Positions 17,146-34,296 of a stretch of DNA of 64,000 nucleotides are shown in pieces (the stretch's first letter is position 1; every line of letters begins with the position of its first letter). This stretch comes from Acidimicrobiia bacterium. Its GTDB lineage: Bacteria; Actinomycetota; Acidimicrobiia; Acidimicrobiales; Bin134. The DNA lies in assembly GCA_022825005.1 (NCBI GenBank), contig JAJDYU010000046.1, positions 18,140 to 82,139 of the forward strand, given 5' to 3'. The position numbers were made by a program, and so were the translations under genes. The notes under the pieces were generated by a model. The model ran no database searches. It was not told where the DNA came from and was given only the letters and a program-made list of their open reading frames with translations.

Positions 17146-17922
17146 TCAGCCCGCTCCGATCCCGGCGCTCGCCATCAGCCCGTTCAACGTGCTAGGGAAG
17201 GTCCCTCCGATGTCGAACCGATTGGGCAGCACTGCCTCGGCCTCAAACAGCTCTTCAAGGTCGTGCAGATCGGCTTCGGCGGCCCCGCCCAGCTCGACTC
17301 GCTCGAAATAGGTCACGGCCAAGATCTCCCGAGCGGAGAGCTTGTCGCCGTTGGAGGGCATGCCTGCGGTGGAGACATCGCCTTCGTCGTTGTACACCTG
17401 TCCGGCGGGGGGAGAGCCGTTGACCACCCAGATCACGTGGTTGCGCCAGTCGACGAAGGAGTTGAGGACTTGGCCGTCGACCATTGCCGGGCCGATCCCG
17501 CCGCCGCCGTCGGCCCCGTGGCAGCCGGCGCACCCGCCGTTGCCTTCGTAGACCTCCCGGCCCAGGGCGATGATCTCGCTGTCATGCTCCGGCGACTCCA
17601 GCGTGCCCGCGAAGATGATGGCCCAAAACGGCAGAAAGATGAGCACCGGCACGGCCCACACTGGGATCTTCTTGCGGGTGAGTGCGGCGTGCACCCACGG
17701 CTTGACCGGTTCGGGCTGGGGTTCGGGCTCGGGTTCCAGGTCGGGAAGCTCGGGTAAAGAGGGCCCCGTGGCGGCCGCCGGAGCCTCAGCCTGAGCCACC
17801 GCAGGAGCGGCGCTGGTCTCCGATGGCGGAACCTCCGCGGCCGGCTCGTCGCCCGTGGTCGCGCCGAGATCACGGCGACGATCTGCCGATCGTTGCAGCA
17901 GATGCTCGGGTACTTCTACCAA
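17146..17922 (-). CDS. membrane-anchored monohaem c-type cytochrome
   Basis: TTG start preceded by GGAGGA. Cytoplasmic N-tail (M)VEVPEHLLQRS, P/E-rich linker, TM helix IPVWAVPVLIFLPFWAIIFAG, haem motif CAGCH, candidate Met ligand in TAGMPS. Confidence 0.8.
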   Translation of the reverse strand: MVEVPEHLLQRSADRRRDLGATTGDEPAAEVPPSETSAAPAVAQAEAPAAATGPSLPELPDLEPEPEPQPEPVKPWVHAALTRKKIPVWAVPVLIFLPFWAIIFAGTLESPEHDSEIIALGREVYEGNGGCAGCHGADGGGGIGPAMVDGQVLNSFVDWRNHVIWVVNGSPPAGQVYNDEGDVSTAGMPSNGDKLSAREILAVTYFERVELGGAAEADLHDLEELFEAEAVLPNRFDIGGTFPSTLNGLMASAGIGAG

Positions 17923-18122: not shown

Positions 18123-18707
18123 GTGGCCGCGCAAAGGCCCATAGACATCGCCGTCACCAATTTCTACAAGGCCCTCGGAGGATGCTTCGTCCTCTACTTG
18201 GCCCTGTGGGCCTTCATCGCCGTCCACCAGTACGACGAAGGCTTGGGGGCGCCGTACTTCAACGTGGCCCTCACCGCCTCCTTGGTGGTCACCGTGCTGG
18301 GCATCGTTGCCTTCCTGGAGTACGCCCGTCGCCGGCCGGTGGGCAAGTACCACACCTGGGGCGAGGCCATGTTCGGCGCCGCATTGGTCTTCTTCCTGCT
18401 GTTCTGGATCTATGGCGTGGTGCCCCACCAGTGGCTGGTGTACGCCGACAGCGAGCTGGGCTGGCGCAAGGACCGCTTGGTTGAGGGTTACTACGTGGGC
18501 AACCAGGGCATCATCTCCTGGGCGCTGCCCTTCGACCTGCCCTATTTGGTATTGCGCGATGTGGTGGCGGTGTTGATCTACGGTTTGGCGTTGGCCGGGA
18601 ACATTGCCGGCTGGATGGTATGGCAGAACCGGGGCAAGACCGCTCCGGTCGAGGTGGAGAAGTCCGAGTATGGACGACCGATCGTGAGAGAGGGGGCGAC
18701 AAGCTAA
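18123..18707 (+). CDS. 4-TM membrane protein of unknown function (first gene of the bc-type operon)
   Basis: SD AAGGGAGGA lies 4 nt before GTG 18123 (ORF open from 18069). Four hydrophobic helices. Stop overlaps the next ATG (TAATG). No family recognised. Confidence 0.65.
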   Translation: MAAQRPIDIAVTNFYKALGGCFVLYLALWAFIAVHQYDEGLGAPYFNVALTASLVVTVLGIVAFLEYARRRPVGKYHTWGEAMFGAALVFFLLFWIYGVVPHQWLVYADSELGWRKDRLVEGYYVGNQGIISWALPFDLPYLVLRDVVAVLIYGLALAGNIAGWMVWQNRGKTAPVEVEKSEYGRPIVREGATS

Positions 18708-19123
18708 TGGCCAGCAGTGATGCCAACCCCCCCATGCCGGAGTTCCGCGATGACTACGTGTTGGTCGAGGTGGACAACGACTACCTCCAGAGCAAGGTCA
18801 AGCCCAAGCAGTTCATCCACATCGACCAGTCCGAGTGCATTATGTGCGAGGGATGCGTGGACATCTGTCCGTGGAAGTGCATCCACATGGTCACTCCCGA
18901 AGCGGTCGACGTGGCCGTGGGCGCCGAGCAGCCCGGCATCGACCCCAGCGACCATGTGATCTTCACCATCGACGAGGACGCCTGCACCCGCTGCGCATTG
19001 TGCGTGGACCGGTGCCCCACCGGGGTGATCACCCTGGGTCGATTGGGCGACCCCGGAGGCGACGGCGACCCGCATCAGCGAATGACCAGCTACGGCTACG
19101 GCTACGGCATGCGGTTGACCTAG
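18707..19123 (+). CDS. 2x[4Fe-4S] ferredoxin-like protein
   Basis: 138 aa. CIMCEGCVDICP and CTRCALCVDRCP (two CxxCxxCxxxCP motifs). No signal peptide or TM. ATG 18707 overlaps the upstream TAA. Confidence 0.8.
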   Translation: MASSDANPPMPEFRDDYVLVEVDNDYLQSKVKPKQFIHIDQSECIMCEGCVDICPWKCIHMVTPEAVDVAVGAEQPGIDPSDHVIFTIDEDACTRCALCVDRCPTGVITLGRLGDPGGDGDPHQRMTSYGYGYGMRLT

Positions 19124-19162
19124 AACTAAGGCCCGGAACGGATAAGAGGACTCAGGAGCAAC

Positions 19163-19948
19163 GTGGCAAAGCAGCCCAGACCACCGGCGAGCGAGCGGGC
19201 CAAGCAGGCCGCGAGCCAAATGATGAGCGACATGCAGGGGTCGCAGGCTTGGTCGTCCATCTTCCGTCCCGGCTCGATCTTCCGCAAGGGCTACAGCGAC
19301 AGCCCCAGAAACCGCAGCTACGTGATCATGAACAGCGTGCTGTACCACCTTCACCCGGTGAAGGTGAAGCGCCACGCGGTGAAGGTCAGCTACACCCTGT
19401 GCTTGGGCGGCCTCAGCTTCTTCTTGTTCATCCTGCTCACCGTGACCGGCATCTTCTTGATGTTCTTCTACCGGCCCACCGCGGCCCAGGCCTGGGATGA
19501 CATCTACACCCTCCAAACCTCGGTTGCCTTCGGGCTGCTGGTGCGCAACATGCACCGATGGGCCGCGCACCTCATGGTCATCACCGTGTTCTTGCACATG
19601 GCCCGGGTCTTCTACCACGGGGCCTACAAACCACCCCGGGAGTTCAACTGGGTAATTGGCGTAATACTGCTGACCCTCACCCTGCTGCTGTCGTTCACCG
19701 GCTATCTGCTTCCCTGGGACCAGCTGGCCCTATGGGCGGTGACGGTGGGAACCAACATGATGGGGTTCACCCCTGTATTCGGCGATCAAGTGCGCTTCGT
19801 ATTGCTCGGAAGCGTGGAGATCGGCACCGACACGCTGCTGCGATGGTATGTGCTGCACGTGCTGATGCTGCCCTTTGTGATCGTCATATTCATGGCCATC
19901 CACTTCTGGCGAGTAAGAAAGGACGGAGGCATATCCGGGCCGCTCTAG
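19163..19948 (+). CDS. cytochrome b6-type protein (N-terminal four-helix half of cytochrome b)
   Basis: 261 aa. LGGLSFFLFILLTVTGIFLMFFY, RNMHRWAAHLMVITVFLHMARVFYHGAY (haem-ligand His pairs), LLPWDQLALWAVTVGTN, HFWRVRKDGG. Confidence 0.88.
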   Translation: MAKQPRPPASERAKQAASQMMSDMQGSQAWSSIFRPGSIFRKGYSDSPRNRSYVIMNSVLYHLHPVKVKRHAVKVSYTLCLGGLSFFLFILLTVTGIFLMFFYRPTAAQAWDDIYTLQTSVAFGLLVRNMHRWAAHLMVITVFLHMARVFYHGAYKPPREFNWVIGVILLTLTLLLSFTGYLLPWDQLALWAVTVGTNMMGFTPVFGDQVRFVLLGSVEIGTDTLLRWYVLHVLMLPFVIVIFMAIHFWRVRKDGGISGPL

Positions 19949-19972
19949 AAGCGACGTCGCAACGACGCTTCT
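19947..19972 (+). promoter_or_regulatory. intercistronic stem-loop between the cytochrome b6 and subunit IV genes
   Basis: AGAAGCG-A-CGT [CGCA] ACG-A-CGCTTCT. 7 bp plus an A/A mismatch plus 3 bp, tetraloop. Starts inside the b6 stop codon. Confidence 0.4.
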
Positions 19973-19990
19973 GGCCCGATCTGAGAGCCC

Positions 19991-20776
19991 ATGGCGGAAG
20001 TTCCTGAACACCTCCTGAAGCGAGCCCAAGAGGCCCGTGAGCGCGCCGAAGCCCAACAGGGCGGCGGCGGAGCGCCCGCGCCCGAATCCTCTGGCGCGGA
20101 GCCGGCCGAGGCTGCTGGCGAGGGCGACTCGGGCGGTCCCAAGATCCCCGACCACCTGCTCGACCGGTCGAAGTCGGCCCGTGATCAAGCCGCTGGTGGC
20201 GGCGGCGCCCAAGCAGCCGCCGCGGTGGCCACTGCGCCCATGCCGGCCGGACCGGCCCAGCCCGAGCCCACCGGTCCCGGCGGTGCTACCCAGCGACTGC
20301 TCACCGTGGTCAAGTCGGGCTCCATCCAAGACGTCAAGGCAACCCCCACCGACAAGGTCCACGTCTGGCCCCACCTGCTGGTGGTGGAGTTCGTGGCCGC
20401 GCTGATCTTCACCGCCTTCACCCTGATCTTCTCCATTTTCGTGAACGCCCCGCTGCTGGAGCTGGCCAACTTCAACGAGACCCCCAACCCGTCCAAGGCT
20501 CCGTGGTACTTCCTCGGCCTCCAGGAGCTGCTCACCATGTTCCACCCGATGGTGGCCGGAGTGACCATCCCCGGAATCGCGCTGTTCCTGTTGATCTTGG
20601 CCCCCTACGTCGACCGCAACCCCAACAAGAAGCCCGAAGATCGCAAGTTCGCCATCTCGCTCATGACCATCCACCTGATGTTCTGGGCGATCCTGGTGCT
20701 GATCGGCTCGTTCTTCCGAGGCCCCGGATTCAACTTCGTCTTCCCGTGGGAAGTCGGCCTCTTCTTCGATCTGTAG
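19991..20776 (+). CDS. cytochrome b C-terminal-domain protein (subunit IV-like) with long low-complexity N-terminal extension
   Basis: C-terminal 140 aa: VWPHLLVVEFVAALIF, NPSKAPWYFLGLQELL (Qo-loop motif position), three TM. N-terminal about 120 aa is rich in A/G/P/E. Confidence 0.82.
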   Translation: MAEVPEHLLKRAQEARERAEAQQGGGGAPAPESSGAEPAEAAGEGDSGGPKIPDHLLDRSKSARDQAAGGGGAQAAAAVATAPMPAGPAQPEPTGPGGATQRLLTVVKSGSIQDVKATPTDKVHVWPHLLVVEFVAALIFTAFTLIFSIFVNAPLLELANFNETPNPSKAPWYFLGLQELLTMFHPMVAGVTIPGIALFLLILAPYVDRNPNKKPEDRKFAISLMTIHLMFWAILVLIGSFFRGPGFNFVFPWEVGLFFDL

Positions 20777-20785
20777 GGACTGACT

Positions 20786-21658
20786 ATGGGCGTCGCACTC
20801 TCCATCGCCATTCCCATCATCGTGGTGGCCGCAGTGATCGTTCTGATCGGCGCGGCCCGACGCCGGGAGACCATGGCAGCCGAAGGCCGTTTGACTCGGG
20901 AGACCCGCCGGAGGGACCGGGGTCGGGTGGACATCGAAGACGCGGCCGGAGCGCCCGACGCCCCCACTGGGCGAGAGGTGGAGCGGGCTGCGGTGTTGGC
21001 CCGTCAGACCGCGGGCACCGAGTTGGTGGAGGCGGCCGATGCGTCGATTGAGGAGTGGACCCCACCAGATCCCGACGCTGTCGGAGTGAGCCGCCGCCAG
21101 TTCTTGAACCGCAGCACGGTGGCCATGATGGGCTTCAGCCTCACCGGCTTCGGCGCGGCCTGCGTGGCATTTCTATGGCCACCGTTCGTCACTGGATTCG
21201 GCGCCGACGTGAACGCCGGCCTGGTGGACGATGTGAAGTCGAAGATCAGGGACGAGAACGGCTTCCTGTACCTTCCCGAGGGGCGCGCCTGGGTCACCGA
21301 ATATCCAGCAGCGGCCCTGCCGAAAGCTCAGGCCACCTACAGCGCGCCGGAGTTGACCGGCATGGAGGCGGGGCTGGTGGCCCTGTTCCAAAAATGCCCC
21401 CATCTGGGATGCCGGGTGCCGAATTGCCTGACCTCGCAGTGGTTCGAGTGTCCCTGCCACGGGTCCCGCTACAACCAGGTGGGGGAGAAGCGGGGCGGAC
21501 CCGCCCCCCGGGGCATGGACCGGTTCGCCATGTCGGTGAACGCCAAGGGCGAGTTCATCATCCGCACCGGCACCGTCATTCAAGGGCCGCCCATCGGGGT
21601 GAACACCACCGGCCAAGAGCCTGAGGGGCCGAGCTGTCTTGGGGGAGCATCGCACTGA
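20786..21658 (+). CDS. Rieske [2Fe-2S] subunit
   Basis: CPHLGCRV...CPCHGSRY. SRRQFLNRS twin-arginine-like anchor plus an extra N-terminal TM. Confidence 0.88.
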   Translation: MGVALSIAIPIIVVAAVIVLIGAARRRETMAAEGRLTRETRRRDRGRVDIEDAAGAPDAPTGREVERAAVLARQTAGTELVEAADASIEEWTPPDPDAVGVSRRQFLNRSTVAMMGFSLTGFGAACVAFLWPPFVTGFGADVNAGLVDDVKSKIRDENGFLYLPEGRAWVTEYPAAALPKAQATYSAPELTGMEAGLVALFQKCPHLGCRVPNCLTSQWFECPCHGSRYNQVGEKRGGPAPRGMDRFAMSVNAKGEFIIRTGTVIQGPPIGVNTTGQEPEGPSCLGGASH

Positions 21659-22989
21659 TGCACCTGCTTGCCGCCTCAACCCAGCGCAACCTGGGCATGG
21701 CCATCGCGGTGGTGGCCATCGTGGGCTTTGCCATCTACCTCATCTACAACGTGTTGTGGGCCGGCCGTGGCGAGAAGGGCTCAGAGGTGGATCTGGCCCC
21801 CAACCGCAAGCCCTACCTGAGCGACGAGGAGCTGGAGACCTCCAAGCTCGACCTCGCCCTGGTCAGCGGCCTGGTCACCCTGGTGATTATCGGCGTGGCC
21901 CTGCCCCTGTACTGGTTGGGCGAGCCCGGCCGCCAACAGGGCTACTTGGAGTTCTCCCGCGACCAGTTCACCAGCCGGGGTGCCGGGCAGTACGAGGAAC
22001 GATGTGCCAGTTGCCACGGCGGCGGCGGTTTGGGCGGCACCACCGCCACTTCGGTCACCGACGACGCGGGCAACTTCATCGCCGCCATCGAGTGGGAGGT
22101 TCCCGCTCTCACCACCGTTCTCTACCGCTTCTCCGAAGAAGAGGTGCGCCACATCCTCGACTACGGCCGGCCCCCCACCCCCATGCAGGCTTGGGGCGCG
22201 CCCGGCGGCGGTCCGCTCACCACCCAGCAGGTGGATGAGCTCATCCAGTACATCCAGAGCATTCAGCTCGATCCGCACGAGGTAGAGCAAGAGGTGTTGA
22301 ACGGCCTCGTTGTCCAAGTGCGCGGCGATGTCTTGGCCGCCAATTCTGATCTGGCCGATCGCCTTGATGCCGCCAACGCCGCGGTGAGCGCCGCGGGGGC
22401 CGACGATGCCGCCGCAGAGGCCGCCGCCCGGAACCTTGCCGCGGTGGAGCAGGAGATTCGGGAGACCAGCGAGCAGTACATCCGCGACCTGGCATCGCCC
22501 GACCGGGGTGAGCTGCTGTTCAACAACGAGGAGTACGGCTGCGCCCGGTGCCACACTCCGCGGGACTCGTGGCGATTCACCGGACCGGAGGCCACCCCCG
22601 GCGCAGGCCCAGTGGTTTTGGCCAAAGGCTCCCCCGAAGAGGCCGCAGAGGTCGCCCGGCTGGGCAACTTGATACCGGTGAACATTCCCGGCGGCGGGGC
22701 GTTCGGACCCAACCTCACCAATGGGGCCACCCTCCGGCAGTTCGACTCCGCCGAGGGCCACGAAGGCTTTGTCACCATCGGCTCGCAAGAGGGCATCGGC
22801 TACGGCAACTTCGGCCAAGGCGACGGCGGCGGCCAGATGCCGGCCTTCGGGGTGTGCGTGGGCGACCGGGACTCCAGCGAGCGCAGCGCCATCCATGGAT
22901 TCTGCACCCTCGAAGACGGCAGCGTTAGACCGGGCATGCTGACCGCCGAGCAGATCGCCGACATCGTGGCCTACGAGCGGGGGTTGTGA
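21658..22989 (+). CDS. membrane-anchored dihaem c-type cytochrome (QcrC-like)
   Basis: Two TM helices, then CASCH and CARCH haem motifs separated by an Ala-rich helical insert. ATG overlaps the Rieske stop (TGATG). Confidence 0.82.
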   Translation: MHLLAASTQRNLGMAIAVVAIVGFAIYLIYNVLWAGRGEKGSEVDLAPNRKPYLSDEELETSKLDLALVSGLVTLVIIGVALPLYWLGEPGRQQGYLEFSRDQFTSRGAGQYEERCASCHGGGGLGGTTATSVTDDAGNFIAAIEWEVPALTTVLYRFSEEEVRHILDYGRPPTPMQAWGAPGGGPLTTQQVDELIQYIQSIQLDPHEVEQEVLNGLVVQVRGDVLAANSDLADRLDAANAAVSAAGADDAAAEAAARNLAAVEQEIRETSEQYIRDLASPDRGELLFNNEEYGCARCHTPRDSWRFTGPEATPGAGPVVLAKGSPEEAAEVARLGNLIPVNIPGGGAFGPNLTNGATLRQFDSAEGHEGFVTIGSQEGIGYGNFGQGDGGGQMPAFGVCVGDRDSSERSAIHGFCTLEDGSVRPGMLTAEQIADIVAYERGL

Positions 22990-24125
22990 GCATGGGCTCG
23001 GTTCTCGCCGCAGTGAACACCCTGGCCGCCATCTCGTTCGACAACGAGATTCGCGGCCTGCTGACGGTGCTTTTGGGCTCGGCCATTCTCATGGGGTCGG
23101 TGTGGCTCATCATCTCCACCAACACTGGCTTCCGCCTGGGAAGCCTCATCGCCATCTCGGCCATCTTCGGGTGGACGGTGATGATGGCGTTCATCTGGTC
23201 GCTGTATGGCATCGGCCTCCAAGGGGCCCGGCCCACTTGGGAGGTGCAGGCCATCCACATCGGCAATCCGTCGGTGACCGACAACGAGGCCAACCCGCCC
23301 CCGGAGATCCTCGACGATCTCCCCAACCCGATCACCTGTGCAACCTTGGGCGACAAAGACTGCCTGCCCAAGGCCATTCAGATCGTCCGGGTGATGGGTA
23401 ACAGCGCCCAGAAGGCCGAGCTCGACTCCATCGACGCAGGGGCCATTCGCGCTGAGATCACCGCCTTCAACGACGCCTTGGCCGCCGACGACCCCCGCAA
23501 GCTCACCGACGACGAGGTCGAAGAAGAAGTGGATCGCCTGGCCGAAGAGGAGCGCATCCGAAACGAAGACCTCACCCTGAGCGAGTTGAAGGGTGTTGCC
23601 CCCGAGCTGACCGATGAAGTCGAGCGCAGAGGGTGGTTGGAGTTGGGCGACTGGAATCTGGAGACCACCCAGGCGGCCGGCGAGGCCATCACCGCGGCCA
23701 GCGACTATCTCGGCAATGCCAATTTGGGATTCGGCGCGACCGACGAGCAGAGCAACACCTTCGTGGTGCTCGACGCCTTCCAGCAGGGAGGCAAGCCCGA
23801 CCGGCTCAACAACGGGGTGTGGGAGCGGGTCAGCAACAAGGTCATCACCAGCGCCATGCCCCGCCACCCCACCAACTACACCGTTGTGCAGGTGCAGCGG
23901 TCGATCTACGAAGCCCCGGTGGCCGGACAGGCCCCACCCCCGGCCCAGGTCGATCCCAACGAGCCGGTCATCTCCGTGCTCTTGCAGCGCAACCTGGGCC
24001 GCTTCCGGCTGCCCAGTATCCTGGTGACCATCGGCTCCGGACTGTTGTTCTTGGCGTCGCTGCTGATGCTCCACACCCGCGACCTGGAAGTCCGCCGTCG
24101 CCTGGAAGGCGAGGGTTCGGGGTAG
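22986..24125 (+). CDS. membrane protein of unknown function (last gene of the bc-type operon)
   Basis: 379 aa. GTG overlaps the cytochrome c stop (GTGA); ATG 22992 is an alternative. Two N-terminal TM, an acidic loop of about 250 aa, one C-terminal TM (LPSILVTIGSGLLFLASLLML). Confidence 0.65.
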   Translation: MSMGSVLAAVNTLAAISFDNEIRGLLTVLLGSAILMGSVWLIISTNTGFRLGSLIAISAIFGWTVMMAFIWSLYGIGLQGARPTWEVQAIHIGNPSVTDNEANPPPEILDDLPNPITCATLGDKDCLPKAIQIVRVMGNSAQKAELDSIDAGAIRAEITAFNDALAADDPRKLTDDEVEEEVDRLAEEERIRNEDLTLSELKGVAPELTDEVERRGWLELGDWNLETTQAAGEAITAASDYLGNANLGFGATDEQSNTFVVLDAFQQGGKPDRLNNGVWERVSNKVITSAMPRHPTNYTVVQVQRSIYEAPVAGQAPPPAQVDPNEPVISVLLQRNLGRFRLPSILVTIGSGLLFLASLLMLHTRDLEVRRRLEGEGSG

Positions 24126-24131: not shown

Positions 24132-24599
24132 ATGACCGGCCAATACCTGCCGATCTTCGCCCTCGGGGTCTTGGCCGTGCTGTTCGCCGCCTTGAGCTTC
24201 GGCGCCTCCCGTCTGCTGGCCCCCCGGCGCCAGACCAAGGCCAAGATCGCCCCCTACGAGTGCGGCGTGGAGGAGAGCACCGACGCCCCAGAGCGATTCG
24301 GGGTCCGGTTCTTCCTCATCGCCATGATCTTCATCGTCTTCGACATCGAGATCATCTTCTTGTACCCCTGGGCGGTGTCCTACCGGGGACTGGGGTTGTT
24401 CGGACTAGTGGCCATGGGGATATTCGCCCTGGCGGTGTTCGAGTCGTTCGTCTACCTCATCGGCAACGGCGCCCTCGACTGGGGTCCGTCCCGGCCAATG
24501 TGGCGGCGCGACCCCCGGGTGTCGGCCCGCCGCACCAGCGACACCACCATCCGCCGAGTGGGACTCGACGGACGAAGCGCCCCGGAGGAAGCAGCATGA
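24132..24599 (+). CDS. nuoA: NADH-quinone oxidoreductase subunit A
   Basis: [30 protein letters not shown]. Carries a basic C-terminal extension of about 35 aa. Confidence 0.9.
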
Positions 24600-24609
24600 G
24601 ATTCCCGCG

Positions 24610-25233
24610 ATGCCGGCAACGACGGTGGGGCCACCAATGAAGCTGCCATTGCTGGGTGATCCCAAGGCTGTCATCGACCAAGGGCTTGAGGGGGTCGACC
24701 ACAACTTCGTGACCGGCAAACTCGAAGACCTGGTCAAGTGGTCTCGGGCCCGGAGCTGCTGGCCGGCCACCTTCGGCCTGGCCTGCTGCGCCATCGAGAT
24801 GATGGCTACCGGCGGGGCCCACTACGACTTGGCCCGCTACGGCATGGAGGTGTTCCGGGCCTCTCCCCGCCAAGCCGACCTGATGATCGTGGCCGGCCGG
24901 GTCTCCCAGAAGATGGCCCCCATCCTGCGCCGCATCTACGACCAGATGATGGAGCCCAAATGGGTGATCTCCATGGGGGTGTGCGCCTCCAGTGGCGGCA
25001 TGTTCAACAACTACGCCATCGTGCAGGGGGTGGACCAGATCGTGCCGGTGGACGTCTACGCCCCCGGCTGCCCGCCCGGCCCGGAGACCCTCATGCACGC
25101 CATCTTGACCCTCCACGACAAGATCACCAGCGGGGAGATCACCCGCCGCCGCGACGAGACCGGCGCCGGGGCCAACCTCACCGTCGACCAACGCGACGGC
25201 CAAACCTCAACGGGCGTGGTAATCCGTAAATGA
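24610..25233 (+). CDS. nuoB: NADH-quinone oxidoreductase subunit B
   Basis: [31 protein letters not shown]. Alternative start ATG 24637 (MKLPLLG). Confidence 0.92.
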
Positions 25234-25664
25234 CCGACTCGGTGCTGCATGTGTCCCGCGACCAGTTCACCGAGACGGTGGCCGGCTTGCGGGACGACGG
25301 CTATGTGTCGGTCCTCGATGTGACCGCCGTGGACTACCTGGAGCACCCCGGCCGCACCGACCTGCCCGCCGAGGTAACCCCTGAGCGGTTCGAGCTGGTG
25401 GTCACCCTCATCTCCCACACTGCCCCAGGCCGCACCAGGCTGAGGGTTCAAGTGCCGGATGACGATCCCACCGTCCCCACCCTGTTCGACCTGTATCCCG
25501 GCACCGAGGCCCTGGAGCGGGAGGTGGCCGACATGTTCGGCATCGTCTTCGAAGGCCACCCCGACCCCAGCCGCATCCTGATGCCCCCCGACTGGGAAGG
25601 CCACCCTCTGCGGAAAGACTTCGCTGTTGGACAAATACCAGTGCAGTTCAAGGCGACGAGATGA
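25230..25664 (+). CDS. nuoC: NADH-quinone oxidoreductase subunit C (short form)
   Basis: [34 protein letters not shown]. 144 aa. ATGA overlaps on both sides. Confidence 0.88.
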
Positions 25665-26950
25665 GCGCCGCCGACACCACGGTGGAAGTCGCTACCGACG
25701 AGGCTGTTCGCCGCCGCGACGACAGCGCGGTGCTTCGCATCGGCGAGGACGACGGCGAGCGCTTGGAGGCCGAAGCCGGCACCAGCGACACCAGCATGGT
25801 CATGAACATGGGGCCCCAGCACCCCAGCACCCACGGCGTGCTGCGGCTCATGCTGGAGATGGAGGGGGAGACCGTGATGCGGTCCAAGCCGGTCATCGGC
25901 TACCTCCACACCGGCATGGAGAAGACCGCCGAAACCCTCACCTACCTTCAGGGCCCCACCAACGTCACTCGCATGGACTACGCCGCCCCGCTGTTCAGCG
26001 AGCTGGCCTTCTCGATGGCCACCGAGGCGCTTTTGGGCCTGGAGGTTCCCCCTCGGGCCACATGGATCAGGATGCTGATGTGCGAGCTGAACCGCATCAG
26101 CTCGCACCTGCTATTCCAGGCCACCAACGGCATGGACATCGGCGCGGTGTCGATGATGATCTACGGCTGGCGGGAACGGGAGGAGGCCCTTCGCCTGCTG
26201 GAGACCATCACCGGCCTGCGGATGAACCACAACTTCATCCGGCCCGGCGGCGTGGCCGCCGACCTGCCCGACGGCTGGCGCGACGAGGTGCTCACCCTTA
26301 TCGACGCCCTGCCCGCCCGGCTCAACGAGTTCGACACCCTGCTCACCGGCCAGCCCATTTACCGGGAGCGGCTCCAGGGCGTCGGCGTCATCAACACCGC
26401 CGAGTGCCTGGCCCTGGGTGTCACCGGACCCATCCTGCGCTCCACGGGCTACGCCTGGGACCTGCGCCGGGACATGCCCTATCTGGCCTACGACCAGGTG
26501 GACTTCGACGTGGTGGTGGGCACCTACGGCGACTGCTTCGACCGCTACGCCATCCGGCTGAACGAGATCAGGGAGTCGATCCGCATCCTGGCCCAGATCC
26601 TGCACCAGATGCCCTCGGGCGATTACCGAGTGCAGGACAAGAAGGTCACCCCGCCGCCCCGAGCCCGCATCGACGAGTCGATGGAAGCCCTGATCCACCA
26701 CTTCAAGATCTTCACCGAGGGGTTCAAGGTGCCTGCCGGCGAGGTGTACGCCGCGGTGGAGTCCCCCCGGGGCGAGCTGGGCTGCTACATGGTGTCGGAC
26801 GGCTCGGCGGTGCCCTACCGAATGCACATCCGCGGCCCCAGCTTTGTGAACCTGCAAACCCTGCCCCACATGATGCAGGGCGGCATGGTGGCCGACGCGG
26901 TGGCCATCATCTCCTCAGTCGATCCCATCATGGGGGAGGTGGACCGCTAG
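25661..26950 (+). CDS. nuoD: NADH-quinone oxidoreductase subunit D
   Basis: NMGPQHPSTHGVLRL, IGYLHTGMEK, ESPRGELG, IRGPSF. Confidence 0.93.
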   Translation: MSAADTTVEVATDEAVRRRDDSAVLRIGEDDGERLEAEAGTSDTSMVMNMGPQHPSTHGVLRLMLEMEGETVMRSKPVIGYLHTGMEKTAETLTYLQGPTNVTRMDYAAPLFSELAFSMATEALLGLEVPPRATWIRMLMCELNRISSHLLFQATNGMDIGAVSMMIYGWREREEALRLLETITGLRMNHNFIRPGGVAADLPDGWRDEVLTLIDALPARLNEFDTLLTGQPIYRERLQGVGVINTAECLALGVTGPILRSTGYAWDLRRDMPYLAYDQVDFDVVVGTYGDCFDRYAIRLNEIRESIRILAQILHQMPSGDYRVQDKKVTPPPRARIDESMEALIHHFKIFTEGFKVPAGEVYAAVESPRGELGCYMVSDGSAVPYRMHIRGPSFVNLQTLPHMMQGGMVADAVAIISSVDPIMGEVDR

Positions 26951-26952
26951 CC

Positions 26953-27573
26953 ATGGCCCGCCTCAACGCCAACAACCTCACGGTTGCCCAGGAGATCTTG
27001 AGCCGGTATCCGGTTCCCCGCTCCGCTCTCATCCCCCTGCTGCACTTGGCCCAAGAACAAGACGGCTACGTCGCCGAGGACGCCATGGCCCACATCGCCG
27101 AACTGGTGGGTGTGACCCCCGCCGAGGTGATGGGCACGTGCAGCTTCTACGAGATGCTCAAGCGGGAGCCGGTGGGCCAATACATGGTCAACATCTGCAA
27201 CGGCATCTCCTGTCATCTGCTGGGCTCGTCCGATCTGATCCATCACGCTGAGGCCACCCTGGGGGTGAGGCCCGGCGGAACCACCGACGACGGCAAGATC
27301 ACCCTGGAAGCGGTGGAGTGCATCGCCGCCTGCACCGAGGCTCCTTGCCTCCAGGTCAACTACCGCTACCGCAACCAAGTCACCGCCGACGACTTCGACC
27401 AGCTGGTTGACGACTTGCGGGCTGGAACCGCCGGAGTGGCCCCCCACGGCCAGTTGGCCAAGGTGCGCCAGCACATCGGCGACGACCGCCGGGCCGGAGT
27501 GTCGCCCCCCGACGGCCAGGGCGAGCCCGCCTGGATGGCCCGCAATCCCTCCGACAACGGGGACGGCTCATGA
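26953..27573 (+). CDS. nuoE: NADH-quinone oxidoreductase subunit E
   Basis: SALIPLLHLAQEQDGY, NICNGISCHLLG, ECIAACTEAP ([2Fe-2S] cysteines). Internal ATG of track ORF 25627..27573. Confidence 0.9.
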   Translation: MARLNANNLTVAQEILSRYPVPRSALIPLLHLAQEQDGYVAEDAMAHIAELVGVTPAEVMGTCSFYEMLKREPVGQYMVNICNGISCHLLGSSDLIHHAEATLGVRPGGTTDDGKITLEAVECIAACTEAPCLQVNYRYRNQVTADDFDQLVDDLRAGTAGVAPHGQLAKVRQHIGDDRRAGVSPPDGQGEPAWMARNPSDNGDGS

Positions 27574-28898
27574 CCGCGCCTGCTCCCCAAGACCTGCGCA
27601 TCATCACCTCCCGCTTCGGCATCGAAGACGGCCACACCCTGGCCGGCTATGAACGCACCGGGGGCTATGCCGGGCTGAGGCGGGCGCTGGAGATGGCCCC
27701 CGCCGACGTCCACGGCGAGGTTCGCACCGCCAGCCTTTTGGGCCGGGGCGGCGCCGGGTTCCCCGCCGGGGTCAAGTGGGGGTTCTGCCCGCCCGGCGTG
27801 TGGCCCCGCTATTTGGTGGTCAACGGCGACGAGTCCGAGCCCGGCACCTACAAAGACCGACTCCTCATGGAGCGCGACCCCCATCAGCTCATCGAGGGCT
27901 GTTTGATCGCCTGCTACGCCCTCGGGCTCTCCCAGTGCTTCTTGTATGTGCGCGGCGAGATGGCCCACGCCCAAGAGCGGTTGGCCGCCGCCCTCAACGA
28001 GGCCTACGAGGCGGGCTACGTGGGCGCCAACGTGTTGGGCGCCGAGGACTTCTCGGTGGACATAACCCTGCACTGGGGGGCCGGGGCCTACATCGTGGGG
28101 GAGGAGACCGCCCTCATCGAGAGCCTGGAGGGCGACCGGGGTATGCCCCGGCTCAAGCCTCCTTATTTCCCGGCGTCTATCGGCCTCTACGGCAAACCCA
28201 CCATCGTCAACAACGTGGAAACCCTGGCCAACCTGCCGTGGATCGTGTCCAACGGCGGGGAGGCGTTTGCCGCTATGGGCGCCGACAGCTCCACCGGCAC
28301 CCGGGTGTTCGCGGTGTCGGGCCATGTGGCCAACCCGGGGGTGTTCGAGGTTCCCTTCGGCACCACCACCTTCCGCGACATCATCTTCGATCCCCTCTAC
28401 GCCGGCGGCATGCGCCCCGGCCGCACCCTCAAGACGTTCATCCCCGGCGGCGCGTCAGCGCCCTGGTTCTTTGAGGAACACCTCGACCTCCCCCTGGAGA
28501 AGACCACCGTCGATCAGGCCGGGTCGATGCTGGGCTCGGGGGCCATCGTGGTCATGGACGACACCACCGACGTGGTGAAGGCCTGCCACAACGTGGTGCG
28601 GTTCTTCGCCCGGGAGTCTTGCGGCAAGTGCACGCCGTGCCGGGAGGGCACATCCTGGCTGGAGAAAATCCTCAGCCGCATCCTGGCCGGCCAAGGCCGT
28701 CCCCAGGACCTGGACCTGCTCATGGATGTGTGCGACAACATCAGCCCCGGCATCGCCTGGCCACCCCGCCAGACCACCATCTGCCCGCTGGGACCTTCTG
28801 CCGTATCGCCCATCGCCTCGGCTTTGGAGCGGTTCCGCGGCGAGTTCGAGGCCTATCTGCCCGCCACCGCGGTGACTGTTGCGGGGGTGGCGTCGTGA
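27570..28898 (+). CDS. nuoF: NADH-quinone oxidoreductase subunit F
   Basis: GRGGAGFPAGVKW (FMN), NGDESEPGTYKDR, ESCGKCTPCREG (N3 cluster). Confidence 0.94.
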   Translation: MTAPAPQDLRIITSRFGIEDGHTLAGYERTGGYAGLRRALEMAPADVHGEVRTASLLGRGGAGFPAGVKWGFCPPGVWPRYLVVNGDESEPGTYKDRLLMERDPHQLIEGCLIACYALGLSQCFLYVRGEMAHAQERLAAALNEAYEAGYVGANVLGAEDFSVDITLHWGAGAYIVGEETALIESLEGDRGMPRLKPPYFPASIGLYGKPTIVNNVETLANLPWIVSNGGEAFAAMGADSSTGTRVFAVSGHVANPGVFEVPFGTTTFRDIIFDPLYAGGMRPGRTLKTFIPGGASAPWFFEEHLDLPLEKTTVDQAGSMLGSGAIVVMDDTTDVVKACHNVVRFFARESCGKCTPCREGTSWLEKILSRILAGQGRPQDLDLLMDVCDNISPGIAWPPRQTTICPLGPSAVSPIASALERFRGEFEAYLPATAVTVAGVAS

Positions 28899-31438: not shown

Positions 31439-31480
31439 CCGCGGGTTTGTCGAACCAAGGGGTCAAAACCCGATGACCGC
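31428..31480 (+). repeat. 15-bp perfect direct repeat (aaacccgatgaccgc), period 38, duplicating the nuoG-stop/nuoH-start ATGA junction
   Basis: Copies at 31428-31442 and 31466-31480, read directly. Confidence 0.9.
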
Positions 31481-32690
31481 CGCTCTCGGTCCCACCGTGT
31501 TTGGCATCGACCCCCTGTATGTGGGCGGGGCGGGCCTGGCCGAAGTGCTCATCACCCTGCTCAAGGTGGGAGTGGCCTTCGCGGTGCTGTTGGTGGCCGT
31601 CATGTTGATGATCTGGTTCGAGCGCAAGCTCATTAGCGACATGCAGAACCGCATCGGCCCCAACCTGGCCGGCCCGTTCGGCATCTTCCAAACGCTGGCC
31701 GACGGCATCAAGCTGTTCTTCAAAGAAGACCTCATCCCCGAGCAGTCCGACCGCTTGGTCTTCAAGCTGGCCCCCTACCTGTCGCTGGTGCCTGCCTTCT
31801 TGGTGTTCGCCGTGGTCCCGGTGGGGGGAGACTTCAGCGGCGGCAACGGCCGGGTCTCCTTATTCGGACACGAGACCTTCCTCCAGGTGTCCGACCCACC
31901 GGTGGGCATCCTGCTGGTGCTGGCCATGTCGTCGGTGGCGGTATACGGGGTCATGCTGGCCGGGTGGTCGTCGGGCTCCAAGTATCCGCTGCTGGCGTCG
32001 GTGCGGGCCTCGGCCCAGATGGTTTCGTATGAGGCCGCCCTGGGGCTGTCGCTGGCCGCAGTGCTGTTGAAGTCGGGCAGCTTGTCCACCAACCAGATCG
32101 TGGCCGAGCAGTCGGTGTGGAACTGGAACCTGTGGGTTACCTGGGTGGTGCCCATGGTGATCTTCTTGATCGCGGCCACCGCCGAGCTCAACCGGCCCCC
32201 GTTCGATTTGGTGGAGGCCGAGCAGGAGCTGGTCGGGGGCTTCCACACCGAGTACAGCTCCATCCGGTTCGCCTTGTTCTTCCTGGCCGAGTTCATGAAC
32301 ACCATCACCATGTCGGCCATCATCGTCACGCTGTTCTTGGGCGGTCCCAACGGCCCCGACTTCACCACGGTGGGCTGGCTGTCGGGCCTGCTGTGGTTCT
32401 TCATCAAGCTGATGCTGTTCCTGTTTGCCTTCGTGTGGCTGCGGGCCACCCTGCCCCGCTTCCGCTACGACCAGCTCATGGATTTGGGCTGGAAGCTGCT
32501 CATCCCCCTGTCGCTGGGCTGGCTGCTGGTGCTGGCCTCTTATGACGTGGCCGGCGACCGGGGTTGGAACCGAGCCGCCGCGGTGATCGTGATGCTGGCC
32601 ATCATGGCCGCACTGGCCGGGCTCTTGGCCCTGGCCCTGCGGGCCGCCCGCCAACGCCGGGAGCTCGACCCCCAAGGAGGATTCGCGTGA
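31473..32690 (+). CDS. nuoH: NADH-quinone oxidoreductase subunit H
   Basis: ERKLISDMQNRIGPN, DGIKLFFKED, AELNRPPFDLVEAEQELVGGFHTEYS. Confidence 0.93.
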   Translation: MTAALGPTVFGIDPLYVGGAGLAEVLITLLKVGVAFAVLLVAVMLMIWFERKLISDMQNRIGPNLAGPFGIFQTLADGIKLFFKEDLIPEQSDRLVFKLAPYLSLVPAFLVFAVVPVGGDFSGGNGRVSLFGHETFLQVSDPPVGILLVLAMSSVAVYGVMLAGWSSGSKYPLLASVRASAQMVSYEAALGLSLAAVLLKSGSLSTNQIVAEQSVWNWNLWVTWVVPMVIFLIAATAELNRPPFDLVEAEQELVGGFHTEYSSIRFALFFLAEFMNTITMSAIIVTLFLGGPNGPDFTTVGWLSGLLWFFIKLMLFLFAFVWLRATLPRFRYDQLMDLGWKLLIPLSLGWLLVLASYDVAGDRGWNRAAAVIVMLAIMAALAGLLALALRAARQRRELDPQGGFA

Positions 32691-32746
32691 GCCGTTGCTT
32701 GATCGCCAAGCGCGAAGTCTCGTCAATCGTTGGAGAGGGCCGATAA

Positions 32747-34289: not shown

Positions 34290-34296
34290 CGCCGCC

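What the first reader, a model, noticed from the sequence alone, without database searches (positions are those of the whole stretch)
18123..24125. Seven-gene split cytochrome b6/subunit IV-Rieske-dihaem c operon with a ferredoxin-like subunit and two unassigned membrane proteins, directly ahead of nuoA-N
Seen in sequence: seven co-directional genes with very short or overlapping junctions (TAATG, TGATG, GTGA). In order they encode a 4-TM protein; a cytoplasmic 2x[4Fe-4S] protein; a cytochrome b6-type half; a subunit-IV-type half; a Rieske protein (CPHLGC/CPCHGS); a TM-anchored dihaem cytochrome c (CASCH, CARCH); and a 379-aa protein with 3 TM and a large acidic loop. nuoA starts 7 nt after the last stop. 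Established knowledge: actinobacterial complex III is normally QcrCAB with one long, unsplit cytochrome b. Split b6/SUIV forms are known from b6f complexes and from Firmicutes-type complexes. Inference: a split-b complex that recruits an n-side iron-sulfur protein and two extra membrane subunits would be a complex III variant I do not recognise as characterised.
Basis: partly seen in the sequence, partly recalled or inferred. Interest (0 to 1): 0.7.

Follow-up and report, generated by a model that had tools for sequence, protein, structure and literature searches.

The report
Ferredoxin-linked b6-type complex III operon
A seven-gene operon in sponge-associated Acidimicrobiia, and in many other deep-branching Actinomycetota, encodes a chloroplast-like (b6-type) respiratory complex III plus an iron-sulfur protein and two unknown membrane proteins that always accompany it, which points to an uncharacterised variant of a central respiratory enzyme.

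Summary
Window 18123-24125 (+) holds seven tightly packed genes:
- g1, a 4-TM protein
- g2, a cytoplasmic 2x[4Fe-4S] protein
- g3, cytochrome b6 with the haem-ci cysteine
- g4, subunit IV with an APWY Qo motif
- g5, a Rieske protein
- g6, a membrane-anchored dihaem cytochrome c
- g7, a 3-TM protein with a large loop

nuoA-N follows 6 nt later.

The three "extra" genes are not passengers. The order g1-g7-nuoA is kept in every sufficiently long locus of 80 Acidimicrobiia genomes. The same seven-gene module, without nuo, recurs in distant Actinomycetota where g2 is only 34-46% identical. In 80 metagenome loci, co-occurrence was 65/66 for g1 and 19/19 to 54/54 for the others.

g1 and g7 match no Pfam or NCBIfam family, no PDB sequence and no PDB fold. 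g2 is far more conserved than g1, g6 or g7, second only to cytochrome b6. Sponge metatranscriptome contigs span most of the gene junctions.

The literature I could search already records split, APWY-type cytochrome b in Ilumatobacter. It also records anammox b6-like complexes with an n-side NAD(P) oxidoreductase. It does not describe this ferredoxin-bearing module.

Best reading: a new variant of the Rieske/cytochrome b6 complex. That the extra proteins are subunits, and which way electrons pass through the Fe-S protein, remain inferences.

The parts
17146..17922 (-). Divergently transcribed, membrane-anchored monohaem cytochrome c (CAGCH). It has one TM helix and an N-terminal cytoplasmic 'VPEHLLQRS' motif. 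It is a likely electron acceptor or carrier next to the complex.
   Evidence: Weak Pfam cytochrome c hits. One TM helix and CAGCH. Kept at this position in the Acidimicrobiia loci at 36-47% identity. PEHLL motif.
18123..18707 (+). g1: a 194-aa, four-helix membrane protein of unknown family. It carries the invariant motifs TWGEAM, FWIYGVVPHQWL and NWRxDR, and a conserved cytoplasmic tail YGRP(L/I)V(R/K)EG. It is a candidate accessory subunit.
   Evidence: No Pfam, NCBIfam or PDB hit. 303 relatives found. Alignment. AF2 model with pLDDT 81 and four helices, with no fold match. Homologous to the small TM proteins of the distant modules: hhalign probability 97.5%, E 8.6e-12.
18707..19123 (+). g2: a 138-aa cytoplasmic 2x[4Fe-4S] ferredoxin-like protein. 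It has nine conserved Cys, including an extra one in CPWxC. About 38 residues lie between the two cluster motifs. Its start overlaps the g1 stop (TAATG).
   Evidence: Fer4 families, E 1e-12. Below the cut-off of NuoI and every other specific NCBIfam model. Best PDB hits are polyferredoxins. 74-80% identical across Acidimicrobiia. Family of at least 2617 clusters; every named one among the members listed is Actinomycetota. CPWxC found 79 times in the 80 metagenome loci.
19163..19948 (+). g3: cytochrome b6-type half (4 helices by alignment). It has four haem-b His ligands and the CxGG haem-ci cysteine (YTLCLGG). A ~45-residue n-side N-terminal extension is present.
   Evidence: PF00033, E 3.5e-46. 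167 bits to b6 of b6f, against about 85 to actinobacterial QcrB. Residue alignment. CLGG found 70 times in the metagenome loci.
19991..20776 (+). g4: subunit-IV-type half (3 TM helices) with the invariant Qo motif PSKAPWYF. It has a ~125-residue n-side N-terminal extension carrying two PEHLL motifs. It has no cysteine, so it is not fused to a cytochrome c.
   Evidence: PF00032. Motifs. All 44 PSK-xPW[Y/F]-F motif matches in the metagenome ORFs read APWY.
20786..21658 (+). g5: Rieske [2Fe-2S] protein (CPHLGC ... CPCHGSRY). It has an extra N-terminal TM helix and an internal TAT-like SRRQF motif before the anchoring helix.
   Evidence: PF00355. Closest NCBIfam model is b6f PetC, below cut-off. 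Motifs.
21658..22989 (+). g6: dihaem class-I cytochrome c (CASCH, CARCH). It is anchored by an N-terminal two-helix hairpin. The two haem domains are joined by an Ala/Asp/Glu-rich linker.
   Evidence: PF13442 and PF00034 for the first domain. Both CxxCH motifs. Not QcrC: 18.7 bits against a cut-off of 200. Monohaem in two of the distant lineages.
22986..24125 (+). g7: a 379-aa protein of unknown family. It has two N-terminal TM helices followed by an invariant G-x-x-G-x-x-P-x-W motif. A large, acidic, probably extracytoplasmic domain with a conserved Cys pair comes next. It ends with a C-terminal TM helix and a basic tail. It is a candidate p-side accessory subunit.
   Evidence: No Pfam, NCBIfam or PDB hit. 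167 relatives. Alignment. AF2 model with pLDDT 74.6, with no fold match. Homologous to the last gene of the distant modules: hhalign probability 98.8%, E 9.8e-17.
24132..39385 (+). nuoA-N (complex I). It starts 6 nt after the g7 stop and is apparently co-transcribed in Acidimicrobiia. It is context, not part of the seven-gene module.
   Evidence: Pfam hits for NuoA, B, D, E, F, G, H, I, L, M and N. The order is the same in L001-L083. Metatranscriptome contigs span g7-nuoA. Absent after g7 in the distant lineages.

Best explanation
The seven genes encode one membrane complex. It is the b6c-type quinol (presumably menaquinol):cytochrome c oxidoreductase (complex III) of Acidimicrobiia and of a large set of other non-Actinomycetia Actinomycetota.

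The proposed core works as a Q-cycle enzyme:
- Quinol is oxidised at a Qo site built by b6/SUIV (motif APWY).
- One electron goes to the Rieske cluster, whose CPCHGS-x-Y signature is of the high-potential type.
- It then passes to the membrane-anchored cytochrome c (g6) and on to the neighbouring monohaem cytochrome c or a terminal oxidase.
- The other electron crosses the membrane through haems bL and bH to haem ci at the Qi site.

Three lineage-specific partners are added:
- g1, a 3-4-helix protein whose conserved cytoplasmic tail is a candidate docking site.
- g7, held by conserved TM helices with a variable domain on the outer side.
- g2, a soluble 2x[4Fe-4S] protein on the cytoplasmic (n) side.

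I propose that g2 docks on the n-side extensions of b6, SUIV and g1. It would then wire the haem ci/Qi pocket to the cytoplasm as a one-electron port or buffer. The direction I favour is entry of low-potential cytoplasmic electrons into the quinone pool at Qi, a ferredoxin:quinone route like the one long postulated for b6f.

What is shown:
- the gene content and the cofactor motifs
- strict co-inheritance and gene order
- transcription across the junctions
- the absence of any known family for g1 and g7

What is inferred:
- that g1, g2 and g7 are stoichiometric subunits
- the cytoplasmic and periplasmic placements
- haem ci attachment
- the direction of electron flow through g2
For: - Core identity. 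Pfam and NCBIfam hits, conserved His ligands, the CxGG cysteine, APWY, Rieske boxes and CxxCH motifs.
- Co-inheritance. The order cytochrome c(-) | g1-g7 | nuoA-nuoB is kept in the Acidimicrobiia loci wherever the contig is long enough. The same seven-gene module appears in distant lineages where g2 is only 34-46% identical, in different neighbourhoods: haem-copper oxidase genes, Ccs or Ccm cytochrome c maturation, haem synthesis and Rex. Co-occurrence in metagenome loci was 65/66, 54/54, 40/40, 25/25, 20/20 and 19/19.
- Homology of g1 and g7 across lineages.
- Translational coupling. g1/g2 and g6/g7 overlap by 1-4 nt here and in most lineages.
- Constraint. Where g1 is 45-55% and g7 34-40% identical, g2 is 74-80% identical. 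That is second only to b6 (86-92%) and above SUIV (63-72%) and Rieske (57-68%), as expected for a redox subunit.
- g2 has no export signal, and complex I has its own NuoI.
- b6 and SUIV carry conserved n-side extensions that solved b6f chains lack.
- Expression. Sponge metatranscriptome contigs cover 18114-20001, 19699-20811, 21041-22028 and 22951-24516.
- Precedent. Anammox b6-like complexes have an n-side Fe-S flavoprotein (PMC12954380). Ferredoxin input at haem cn has been proposed for b6f (PMC5600118).
Against: - Nothing here tests physical association. No multimer model could be run and there are no proteomic data.
- The longer 'fusion' proteins among the g2 relatives are frameshift artefacts, not natural fusions.
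- g2 has no membrane anchor and no catalytic domain, so a donor or acceptor partner is missing from the model.
- Fold searches for g1 and g7 returned nothing, so their roles rest on topology alone.
- I could not check whether these genomes also carry QcrCAB, so 'the' complex III is an assumption.
- Kao and Hunte suggested that APWY-type complexes run in reverse.
- The metatranscriptome contigs carry no strand information and may include DNA.
- The quinone type (menaquinone) comes from general knowledge of Actinomycetota. It was not tested.
Confidence: 0.55

Rival explanations
1. g1, g2 and/or g7 are biogenesis factors rather than subunits. One example would be an n-side system that attaches haem ci to the CxGG cysteine, a job done by the CCB proteins in chloroplasts and by unknown factors in Firmicutes. 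Another would be help with inserting the unusual two-helix Rieske and cytochrome c proteins. In this reading g2 would supply reducing equivalents for the thioether bond.
For: - Every module with g2 has the CxGG cysteine.
- The modules often sit next to cytochrome c maturation and haem synthesis genes.
- g1 has a Trp/His-rich conserved loop.
- Assembly factors are commonly encoded in the operon of their client.
Against: - g2 is much more conserved than g1, g6 or g7 and second only to b6, which is unusual for an assembly factor.
- Cyanobacteria, Firmicutes and Geobacter-type APWY complexes have the CxGG cysteine without a g2-like gene.
- No similarity to CCB, Ccm or Ccs families was found.
- By the positive-inside rule, the conserved g1 loop lies on the outer side, away from haem ci.
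Confidence: 0.18
2. The complex is a quinol-based electron-bifurcating or reverse-running enzyme. In the bifurcating form, the high-potential Rieske/cytochrome c branch pulls the second electron through the b haems and haem ci into the 2x[4Fe-4S] protein. That would generate low-potential reductant in the cytoplasm instead of recycling it at Qi, as proposed for the anammox complexes. In the reverse form, electrons flow from cytochrome c to quinone, as proposed for APWY complexes.
For: - APWY replaces the PEWY/PDWY motif, and that clade has been suggested to run in reverse.
- All Rieske proteins carry the Ser/Tyr (CPCHGS-x-Y) signature. Baymann et al. use this signature as a marker of a potential of about +300 mV or more. 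Combined with a low-potential quinone, that leaves a very reducing semiquinone.
- Anammox precedent.
Against: - The module sits with complex I, terminal oxidases and cytochrome c biogenesis, as expected for the main aerobic chain.
- g2 has no flavin or NAD(P) domain to deliver electrons.
- The electron would have to move against the membrane potential to reach roughly -400 mV clusters (inference).
- No APWY complex has been characterised.
Confidence: 0.17
3. g1-g2 form an independent membrane-tethered ferredoxin, and g7 is an unrelated membrane protein. They are merely co-transcribed with complex III (and, in Acidimicrobiia, with complex I) and serve another enzyme.
For: - There is no direct evidence of contact.
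- g2 resembles generic polyferredoxin and NuoI-type domains.
- Respiratory 'superoperons' do bundle separate complexes, as with nuo here.
Against: - The position immediately before b6 and immediately after cytochrome c is invariant across lineages that share nothing else in the neighbourhood.
- nuo linkage is confined to Acidimicrobiia, so g2 does not track complex I.
- The overlapping start and stop codons tie g1 to g2 and g6 to g7.
Confidence: 0.08

Closest known systems
Cytochrome b6f complex of cyanobacteria and chloroplasts (PetB/PetD/PetC/PetA)
   Same: - Split cytochrome b6 plus subunit IV.
- b6 is the best solved relative of g3 (167 bits).
- All four His ligands and the haem-ci cysteine (CxGG) are kept.
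- The Rieske protein has a CPCHGS-x-Y box and is closest to PetC models.
- Ferredoxin has been proposed to feed haem cn in b6f.
   Different: - There is no cytochrome f. A class-I dihaem cytochrome c takes its place.
- The Qo motif is APWY, not PEWY.
- No PetG/L/M/N-like genes are evident.
- b6 and SUIV have long n-side extensions.
- Three extra genes (g1, g2, g7) are present, with an Fe-S protein encoded in the operon itself.
- The setting is respiratory and non-photosynthetic, next to nuo or oxidase genes.
APWY clade of Rieske/cytochrome b complexes (Kao and Hunte 2014), including Geobacter ExtOPQ and the split cytochrome b of Ilumatobacter coccineum
   Same: - APWY Qo motif, split b and the CxGG cysteine.
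- g3 even scores above the NCBIfam ExtP cut-off (306 against 290).
- Actinobacteria, including one Acidimicrobiia isolate, were listed among the carriers of split cytochrome b.
   Different: - The published clade description concerns cytochrome b and Rieske only. No ferredoxin, g1 or g7 partner is mentioned.
- The Geobacter ext cluster has multihaem cytochromes, a porin and a rhodanese, and no Fer4 gene.
- g4 is far below the ExtQ cut-off (49.6 against 150).
- The CxGG context here is YT(L/F)CLGG, not the WCMGG typical of that clade.
Anammox (Kuenenia) Rieske/cytochrome b complexes Kuste4569-4574 and Kustd1480-1485
   Same: A b6-like split core is combined with an extra Fe-S-containing protein placed on the cytoplasmic side. 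This is the only published case I found of a b6-type complex with an n-side redox module. It has been proposed to divert the low-potential electron.
   Different: - The anammox partner is a putative NAD(P) oxidoreductase, whereas g2 is a bare 138-aa 2x[4Fe-4S] protein.
- The anammox complexes use hexa- or octahaem cytochromes and an HAO-like protein.
- There is no g1 or g7 counterpart.
- The organisms and metabolism are different.
Actinobacterial QcrCAB (cytochrome bcc) of Mycobacterium and Corynebacterium supercomplexes
   Same: - Same phylum and same role in the chain.
- Both use a dihaem cytochrome c as the built-in acceptor.
- In both, the Rieske protein has extra N-terminal helices preceding a TAT-like motif.
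   Different: - QcrB is one long unsplit protein without the CxGG cysteine.
- g3, g5 and g6 score far below the QcrB, QcrA and QcrC cut-offs (117/500, 21.5/275 and 18.7/200).
- The gene order differs.
- There is no Fe-S partner.
Firmicute b6c complex (Bacillus QcrABC, heliobacterial PetABCD)
   Same: A respiratory or photosynthetic split b6/SUIV complex with haem ci in a Gram-positive, menaquinone-using organism.
   Different: - In Bacillus, SUIV is fused to cytochrome c. Here g4 has no cysteine and g6 is a separate gene.
- The Qo motif there is PDWY.
- There are no g1, g2 or g7 equivalents.

Membership tests
Rieske/cytochrome b complexes (general) | Cytochrome b with four His ligands for haems bL and bH | tested here: met
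   All four His align with H86, H100, H187 and H202 of spinach b6. PF00033, E 3.5e-46.
Rieske/cytochrome b complexes (general) | Rieske [2Fe-2S] protein with CxHxGC and CxCH boxes, encoded next to cytochrome b | tested here: met
   CPHLGC and CPCHGS in g5. PF00355. Kept in all lineages.
Rieske/cytochrome b complexes (general) | Quinol:cytochrome c oxidoreductase activity with a Q cycle | not testable with these tools
   Needs biochemistry.
b6f-type ('green') complexes | Cytochrome b split into a b6 half and a subunit IV half | tested here: met
   Separate genes g3 (PF00033) and g4 (PF00032), 42 nt apart.
b6f-type ('green') complexes | CxGG cysteine for covalent haem ci/cn | tested here: met
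   C80 in TLCLGG aligns with Cys35 of b6. CLGG was found 70 times in the metagenome loci. Actual haem attachment is not testable here.
b6f-type ('green') complexes | Cytochrome f (PetA) as the high-potential haem subunit | tested here: not met
   g6 is a class-I dihaem cytochrome c (PF13442 and PF00034). No cytochrome f gene lies in the operon.
APWY clade (Kao and Hunte 2014) | APWY at the Qo motif of the C-terminal half | tested here: met
   PSKAPWYF in g4 and in all six compared lineages. All 44 PSK-xPW[Y/F]-F motif matches in the metagenome ORFs read APWY.
APWY clade (Kao and Hunte 2014) | Phylogenetic placement of cytochrome b inside that clade | not tested
   No tree was built. The only indirect support is the above-cut-off hit to the Geobacter ExtP model.
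Geobacter Ext (selenite/tellurite reduction) cluster ExtP/ExtQ | ExtP and ExtQ equivalog scores above the NCBIfam cut-offs | tested here: inconclusive
   ExtP 306.3, above 290. ExtQ 49.6, far below 150.
Geobacter Ext (selenite/tellurite reduction) cluster ExtP/ExtQ | Operon context extHIJKLMNOPQS (porin, rhodanese, multihaem cytochromes) | tested here: not met
   None of these is in the window or in related loci. Cluster composition taken from PMC5877670.
Actinobacterial QcrCAB | Unsplit QcrB, QcrA and QcrC reaching the NCBIfam cut-offs | tested here: not met
   QcrB 117/500, QcrA 21.5/275, QcrC 18.7/200. Cytochrome b is split.
Firmicute b6c (QcrABC) | Subunit IV fused to a cytochrome c domain | tested here: not met
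   g4 has no cysteine and g6 is a separate gene.
Anammox-type b6-like complexes with n-side oxidoreductase | NAD(P)-oxidoreductase (flavin/NAD-binding) subunit in the cluster | tested here: not met
   g2 is 138 aa with Fer4 domains only. No flavoprotein gene lies in the module.
Complex I subunit NuoI | TIGR01971 or NuoI equivalog score above cut-off, and a position inside nuo | tested here: not met
   40.9 against 113. A separate nuoI lies at 32747-33424. g2 occurs without nuo in the distant lineages.
2x[4Fe-4S] bacterial-type ferredoxin domain (Pfam Fer4 clan) | Two CxxCxxCxxxCP motifs | tested here: met
   C45-C55 and C94-C104. Fer4 families above their gathering scores. Cluster binding itself is not testable here.

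The most novel reading that the evidence does not exclude
g2 is a genuine n-side subunit whose two [4Fe-4S] clusters lie within electron-transfer distance of haem ci. That would make this a naturally 'hard-wired' ferredoxin-coupled b6-type complex. It would be the first case in which the long-debated electron path between cytoplasmic or stromal ferredoxin and the Qi/haem-ci site is built into the enzyme. Electrons could flow either way: as ferredoxin:menaquinone reduction, or as quinol-driven bifurcation to a low-potential acceptor. g1 and g7 would be two new families of complex III subunits.
Probability: 0.3. Interest if true: 0.85.

Novelty: new variant of a known kind. Interest (0 to 1): 0.62.

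Why it matters
The role of haem ci is a long-standing open question in bioenergetics. So is whether b6-type complexes exchange electrons with ferredoxin on the n side.

In this module a 2x[4Fe-4S] protein is inherited together with a haem-ci-type b6 core:
- across a very large, mostly uncultured part of Actinomycetota, with at least 2617 protein clusters
- in soils, sediments, the ocean and sponge symbionts
- in every locus examined

If the protein is a subunit, these organisms offer a respiratory, non-photosynthetic system in which that connection can be isolated and measured.

The result also corrects the textbook picture that actinobacterial complex III is always QcrCAB. It defines two new membrane-protein families tied to complex III. 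It flags a likely misnaming: g3 passes the NCBIfam 'ExtP selenite/tellurite' equivalog cut-off.

Tried and rejected
- **Geobacter Ext lead.** g3 scores above the ExtP cut-off, but the ext cluster has no ferredoxin and an unrelated context. I rejected membership and kept it only as a sign of an APWY-type b6.
- **g2 as a stray NuoI.** Rejected. The score is far below the cut-off, nuo has its own NuoI, and g2 occurs without nuo elsewhere.
- **Natural gene fusions as evidence of contact.** The longer g2-containing proteins (P0246, P0253, P0262, P0292, P0320 and others) are out-of-frame read-throughs from error-prone assemblies.
- **Sequence and fold searches of g1 and g7 against the PDB.** There was no hit better than E 0.6.
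- **Multimer prediction.** It cannot be run with these tools, which accept only single window proteins.
- **Finding a cultured carrier.** The genome scan returned only the 80 closest loci, all of them MAGs. Cluster look-ups gave names no finer than 'Acidimicrobiales' or 'Actinomycetota bacterium'.
- **Promoter and terminator consensus scan.** It found nothing meaningful.
- **Hairpin after g3.** It is unremarkable (z = -1.8).
- **Literature searches** for the operon in Acidimicrobiia, Poriferisocius or Hopanoidivorans found no description.

Full report
**1. The observation.** Window 18123-24125 carries seven co-directional ORFs. All have the high third-position GC of real genes in this ~66% GC genome.

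Pfam and NCBIfam identify five of the seven:
- g2: two Fer4 motifs
- g3: cytochrome b N-terminal domain, E 3.5e-46
- g4: cytochrome b C-terminal/PetD domain
- g5: Rieske
- g6: class-I cytochrome c
- g1 and g7: no hit in either library

Direct reading of the sequence gives the rest:
- The junctions TAATG, TGATG and GTGA.
- The motifs CIMCEGCVDICP and CTRCALCVDRCP in g2, CPHLGC and CPCHGS in g5, and CASCH and CARCH in g6.
- Four, three and three hydrophobic helices in g1, g4 and g7.
- A 6-nt gap before nuoA.

nuoA-N follows and includes its own NuoI. The g1 start at 18123 is supported by a strong AAAGGGAGGA site and by the aligned N-termini of homologues. The g2 start is the ATG at 18707.

**2. 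The organism.** The closest relatives of g1 and g7 (up to 98% identity) come from sponge-associated Acidimicrobiia labelled Candidatus Poriferisocius. DNA runs that hold the region are sponge metagenomes.

**3. The core is a b6-type Rieske/cytochrome b complex.**
- Among solved structures, g3 is closest to b6 of b6f complexes (167 bits). Actinobacterial QcrB scores about 85 bits.
- The alignment with spinach b6 keeps all four haem-b histidines and Cys35, the residue that binds haem ci (TLCLGG).
- g4 carries KAPWYF, which is the APWY Qo motif.
- The Rieske second box reads CPCHGSRY.
- The motifs YT(L/F)CLGG, PSKAPWYF and CPCHGS(K/R)Y are kept in every lineage examined.
- QcrB, QcrA and QcrC models score far below their cut-offs, so this is not the QcrCAB of Actinomycetia.
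- g3 exceeds the cut-off of the NCBIfam 'ExtP' equivalog (306 against 290). The Geobacter ext cluster, however, has multihaem cytochromes, a porin and no ferredoxin (PMC5877670), and g4 is far below the ExtQ cut-off. The hit only says 'APWY-type b6'.

**4. The three extra genes are inherited with the core.**

*Acidimicrobiia genomes.* A scan of one genome per GTDB species with a g1 profile found 387 genomes with a relative. The best 80 loci were all Acidimicrobiia MAGs. I ran tblastn with the window proteins against these loci and three further loci. Wherever the contig is long enough, the order is: cytochrome c (- strand), g1, g2, g3, g4, g5, g6, g7, nuoA, nuoB.

Identities in the more distant Acidimicrobiia:

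| Gene | % identity |
|---|---|
| g1 | 45-55 |
| g2 | 74-80 |
| g3 | 86-92 |
| g4 | 63-72 |
| g5 | 57-68 |
| g6 | 40-50 |
| g7 | 34-40 |

The ferredoxin-like protein is therefore second only to b6 in conservation, ahead of SUIV and Rieske.

*Distant g2 relatives.* An exhaustive HMMER search with g2 against 1.84 billion cluster representatives found full-length relatives at 34-46% identity. A profile of these found 2617 clusters. Every named one among the members listed is 'Actinomycetota bacterium'.

Their genomic contexts all show the same module:
- a small TM protein of 115-154 aa
- Fer4
- b6
- SUIV
- Rieske
- a mono- or dihaem cytochrome c
- a 245-341-aa protein without a Pfam hit

These modules are not next to nuo. 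They lie beside haem-copper oxidase genes, Ccs or Ccm cytochrome c maturation, haem biosynthesis and, twice, Rex.

*Homology of the flanking genes.* Profile-profile comparison shows that the first and last genes of these modules are homologous to g1 and g7. The probabilities are 97.5% (E 8.6e-12) and 98.8% (E 9.8e-17).

*Systematic sample.* I took 80 metagenome loci fetched with the distant g2 profile and scanned them with HMMs of all seven genes. Where the contig leaves room, the counts were g1 65/66, g3 54/54, g4 40/40, g5 25/25, g6 20/20 and g7 19/19.

g1/g2 and g6/g7 overlap by 1-4 nt here and in most lineages.

**5. Expression.** Contigs from four sponge metatranscriptomes (85-99% identical) cover these stretches:
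- 18114-20001, from g1 into g4
- 19699-20811, from g3 into g5
- 21041-22028, across g5/g6
- 22951-24516, from the end of g6 through g7 into nuoA

This fits one long transcript that continues into nuo. Such contigs carry no strand information and may contain some DNA.

**6. What g1, g2 and g7 look like.**

*g1.*
- The AF2 model (pLDDT 81) is a four-helix bundle.
- It has no sequence or fold relative in the PDB.
- Its best-conserved parts are the third helix, the following loop (FWIYGVVPHQWL..AD.EL.WR.DR) and a C-terminal tail (YGRP(L/I)V(R/K)EG).
- By the positive-inside rule, the loop faces outward and the tail faces the cytoplasm.

*g2.*
- It has no signal or TAT motif, so it should stay in the cytoplasm.
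- All eight cluster cysteines plus a ninth (CPWxC) are conserved.
- Its nearest solved relatives are polyferredoxin domains.

*g7.*
- The AF2 model has pLDDT 74.6.
- It has no sequence or fold relative in the PDB.
- The conserved parts are the two N-terminal helices, the motif after them (G-x-x-G-x-x-P-x-W) and the last helix.
- The middle domain varies from about 130 to 270 residues. In many members it contains a conserved Cys pair, and it is acidic. That fits an extracytoplasmic position.

*n-side extensions.* b6 and SUIV have N-terminal, n-side extensions of about 45 and 125 residues that solved b6f chains lack. These are the obvious docking surface for g2.

**7. Mechanism.**

The best-supported reading is a single complex. 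It would be a b6c-type menaquinol:cytochrome c oxidoreductase with haem ci and a built-in membrane-anchored cytochrome c, plus three lineage-specific accessory proteins. Its association with complex I, terminal oxidases, cytochrome c maturation and haem synthesis suggests it is part of the main aerobic chain.

For g2, I favour an n-side redox subunit that connects haem ci/Qi with the cytoplasm. This is an inference. It rests on co-inheritance, strong constraint, cytoplasmic location and two precedents:
- The anammox b6-like complexes have an n-side NAD(P) oxidoreductase (PMC12954380).
- Ferredoxin input at haem cn has been proposed for b6f (PMC5600118).

The direction of electron flow is open.
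- Entry of low-potential electrons to reduce quinone at Qi is energetically easy.
- Exit by quinol-based bifurcation is suggested by the APWY motif and by the high-potential-type Rieske signature (rule in PMC3509893; APWY discussion in PMC4122944). It must, however, work against the membrane potential, and g2 has no flavin domain.

A biogenesis role remains a serious rival, for example in haem ci attachment. An independent ferredoxin module is unlikely given the invariant positions.

**8. Comparison with what is known.**
- Kao and Hunte (2014) listed five split cytochromes b in Actinobacteria, from Rubrobacteridae and Ilumatobacter coccineum. They defined an APWY clade that carries the CxGG motif and stated that no member had been characterised.
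- Dibrova et al. (2017) discuss CxGG-bearing short cytochromes b in many lineages.
- In the passages I read or term-searched, none of these papers mentions a ferredoxin-like partner, g1 or g7. My full-text searches found no paper that does.

The core is therefore a known kind. The conserved seven-gene composition is, as far as I can tell, undescribed, so I rate it a new variant of a known kind.

**9. Limits.**
- No test of physical association was possible.
- The taxonomy of the distant carriers is known only to phylum level.
- I could not check whole genomes for a second complex III.
- The quinone type is assumed from general knowledge of Actinomycetota.

Noticed in passing
window 20003-20030 and 20147-20175 (+), 17910-17885 (-); also L001, L048, L052: A short motif, (V/I)P(E/D)HLLxR(S/A), sits at the very N-terminus of subunit IV, where it occurs twice. 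It also sits at the N-terminus of the divergent monohaem cytochrome c. These are its only occurrences in all six frames of the window. It is conserved in other Acidimicrobiia. In the distant lineages the SUIV extension instead carries a different conserved basic helix (FD..L.AE.AKG..RVAEGRA.SA.RA.RK). It could be a shared cytoplasmic docking motif, possibly for g2.
   Followed up: partly
window 19163-19948 (+): g3 scores 306 bits on the NCBIfam equivalog NF040969, 'selenite/tellurite reduction operon b-type cytochrome ExtP' (cut-off 290), although no ext operon is present. Automatic annotation may therefore misname this gene.
   Followed up: yes
window 10907-14523 (+), 15853-17106 (-), 52294-54963 (-); L084-L086, L090, L091: The b6c-nuo cluster is flanked by haem biosynthesis genes: hemA, hemC and cobA-hemD upstream, and hemE and a hemY-like oxidase downstream. 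A geranylgeranyl-reductase-type FAD protein (MenJ-like) also lies upstream. In the distant lineages the module sits beside hem genes, Ccs or Ccm cytochrome c maturation, haem-copper oxidase genes and, twice, a Rex-type regulator.
   Followed up: partly
window 20786-21200 (+): The Rieske protein has an extra N-terminal TM helix. A roughly 90-residue basic cytoplasmic stretch follows, and then a TAT-like SRRQF motif comes before the anchoring helix. The same layout is seen in all six compared lineages.
   Followed up: partly
L085 8007-8681, L090 12810-13553: In two distant lineages the cytochrome c of the module has only one CxxCH motif (224-247 aa). The 'dihaem' character is therefore not universal to the module.
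   Followed up: partly
window 18839-18883 (+) and g2 relatives: g2 carries a ninth conserved cysteine directly after the first cluster motif (CPWxC). It was found 79 times in the 80 metagenome loci. Its role is unknown.
   Followed up: no
window 19946-19974 (+): A 9+3-bp hairpin (-19 kcal/mol, z = -1.8) starts at the g3 stop codon, in the 42-nt gap before g4. It has no T-tract, so it is not terminator-like and is statistically unremarkable.
   Followed up: yes
window 39416-40003 (+): A 195-aa ORF with gene-like codon bias lies directly after nuoN and has no Pfam hit.
   Followed up: no
proteins P0246, P0253, P0262, P0292, P0320, P0332, P0346: Public metagenome gene calls that look like g1-g2 or g2-b6 fusions contain long out-of-frame stretches. 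They are frameshift artefacts of error-prone assemblies and should not be read as natural fusions.
   Followed up: yes
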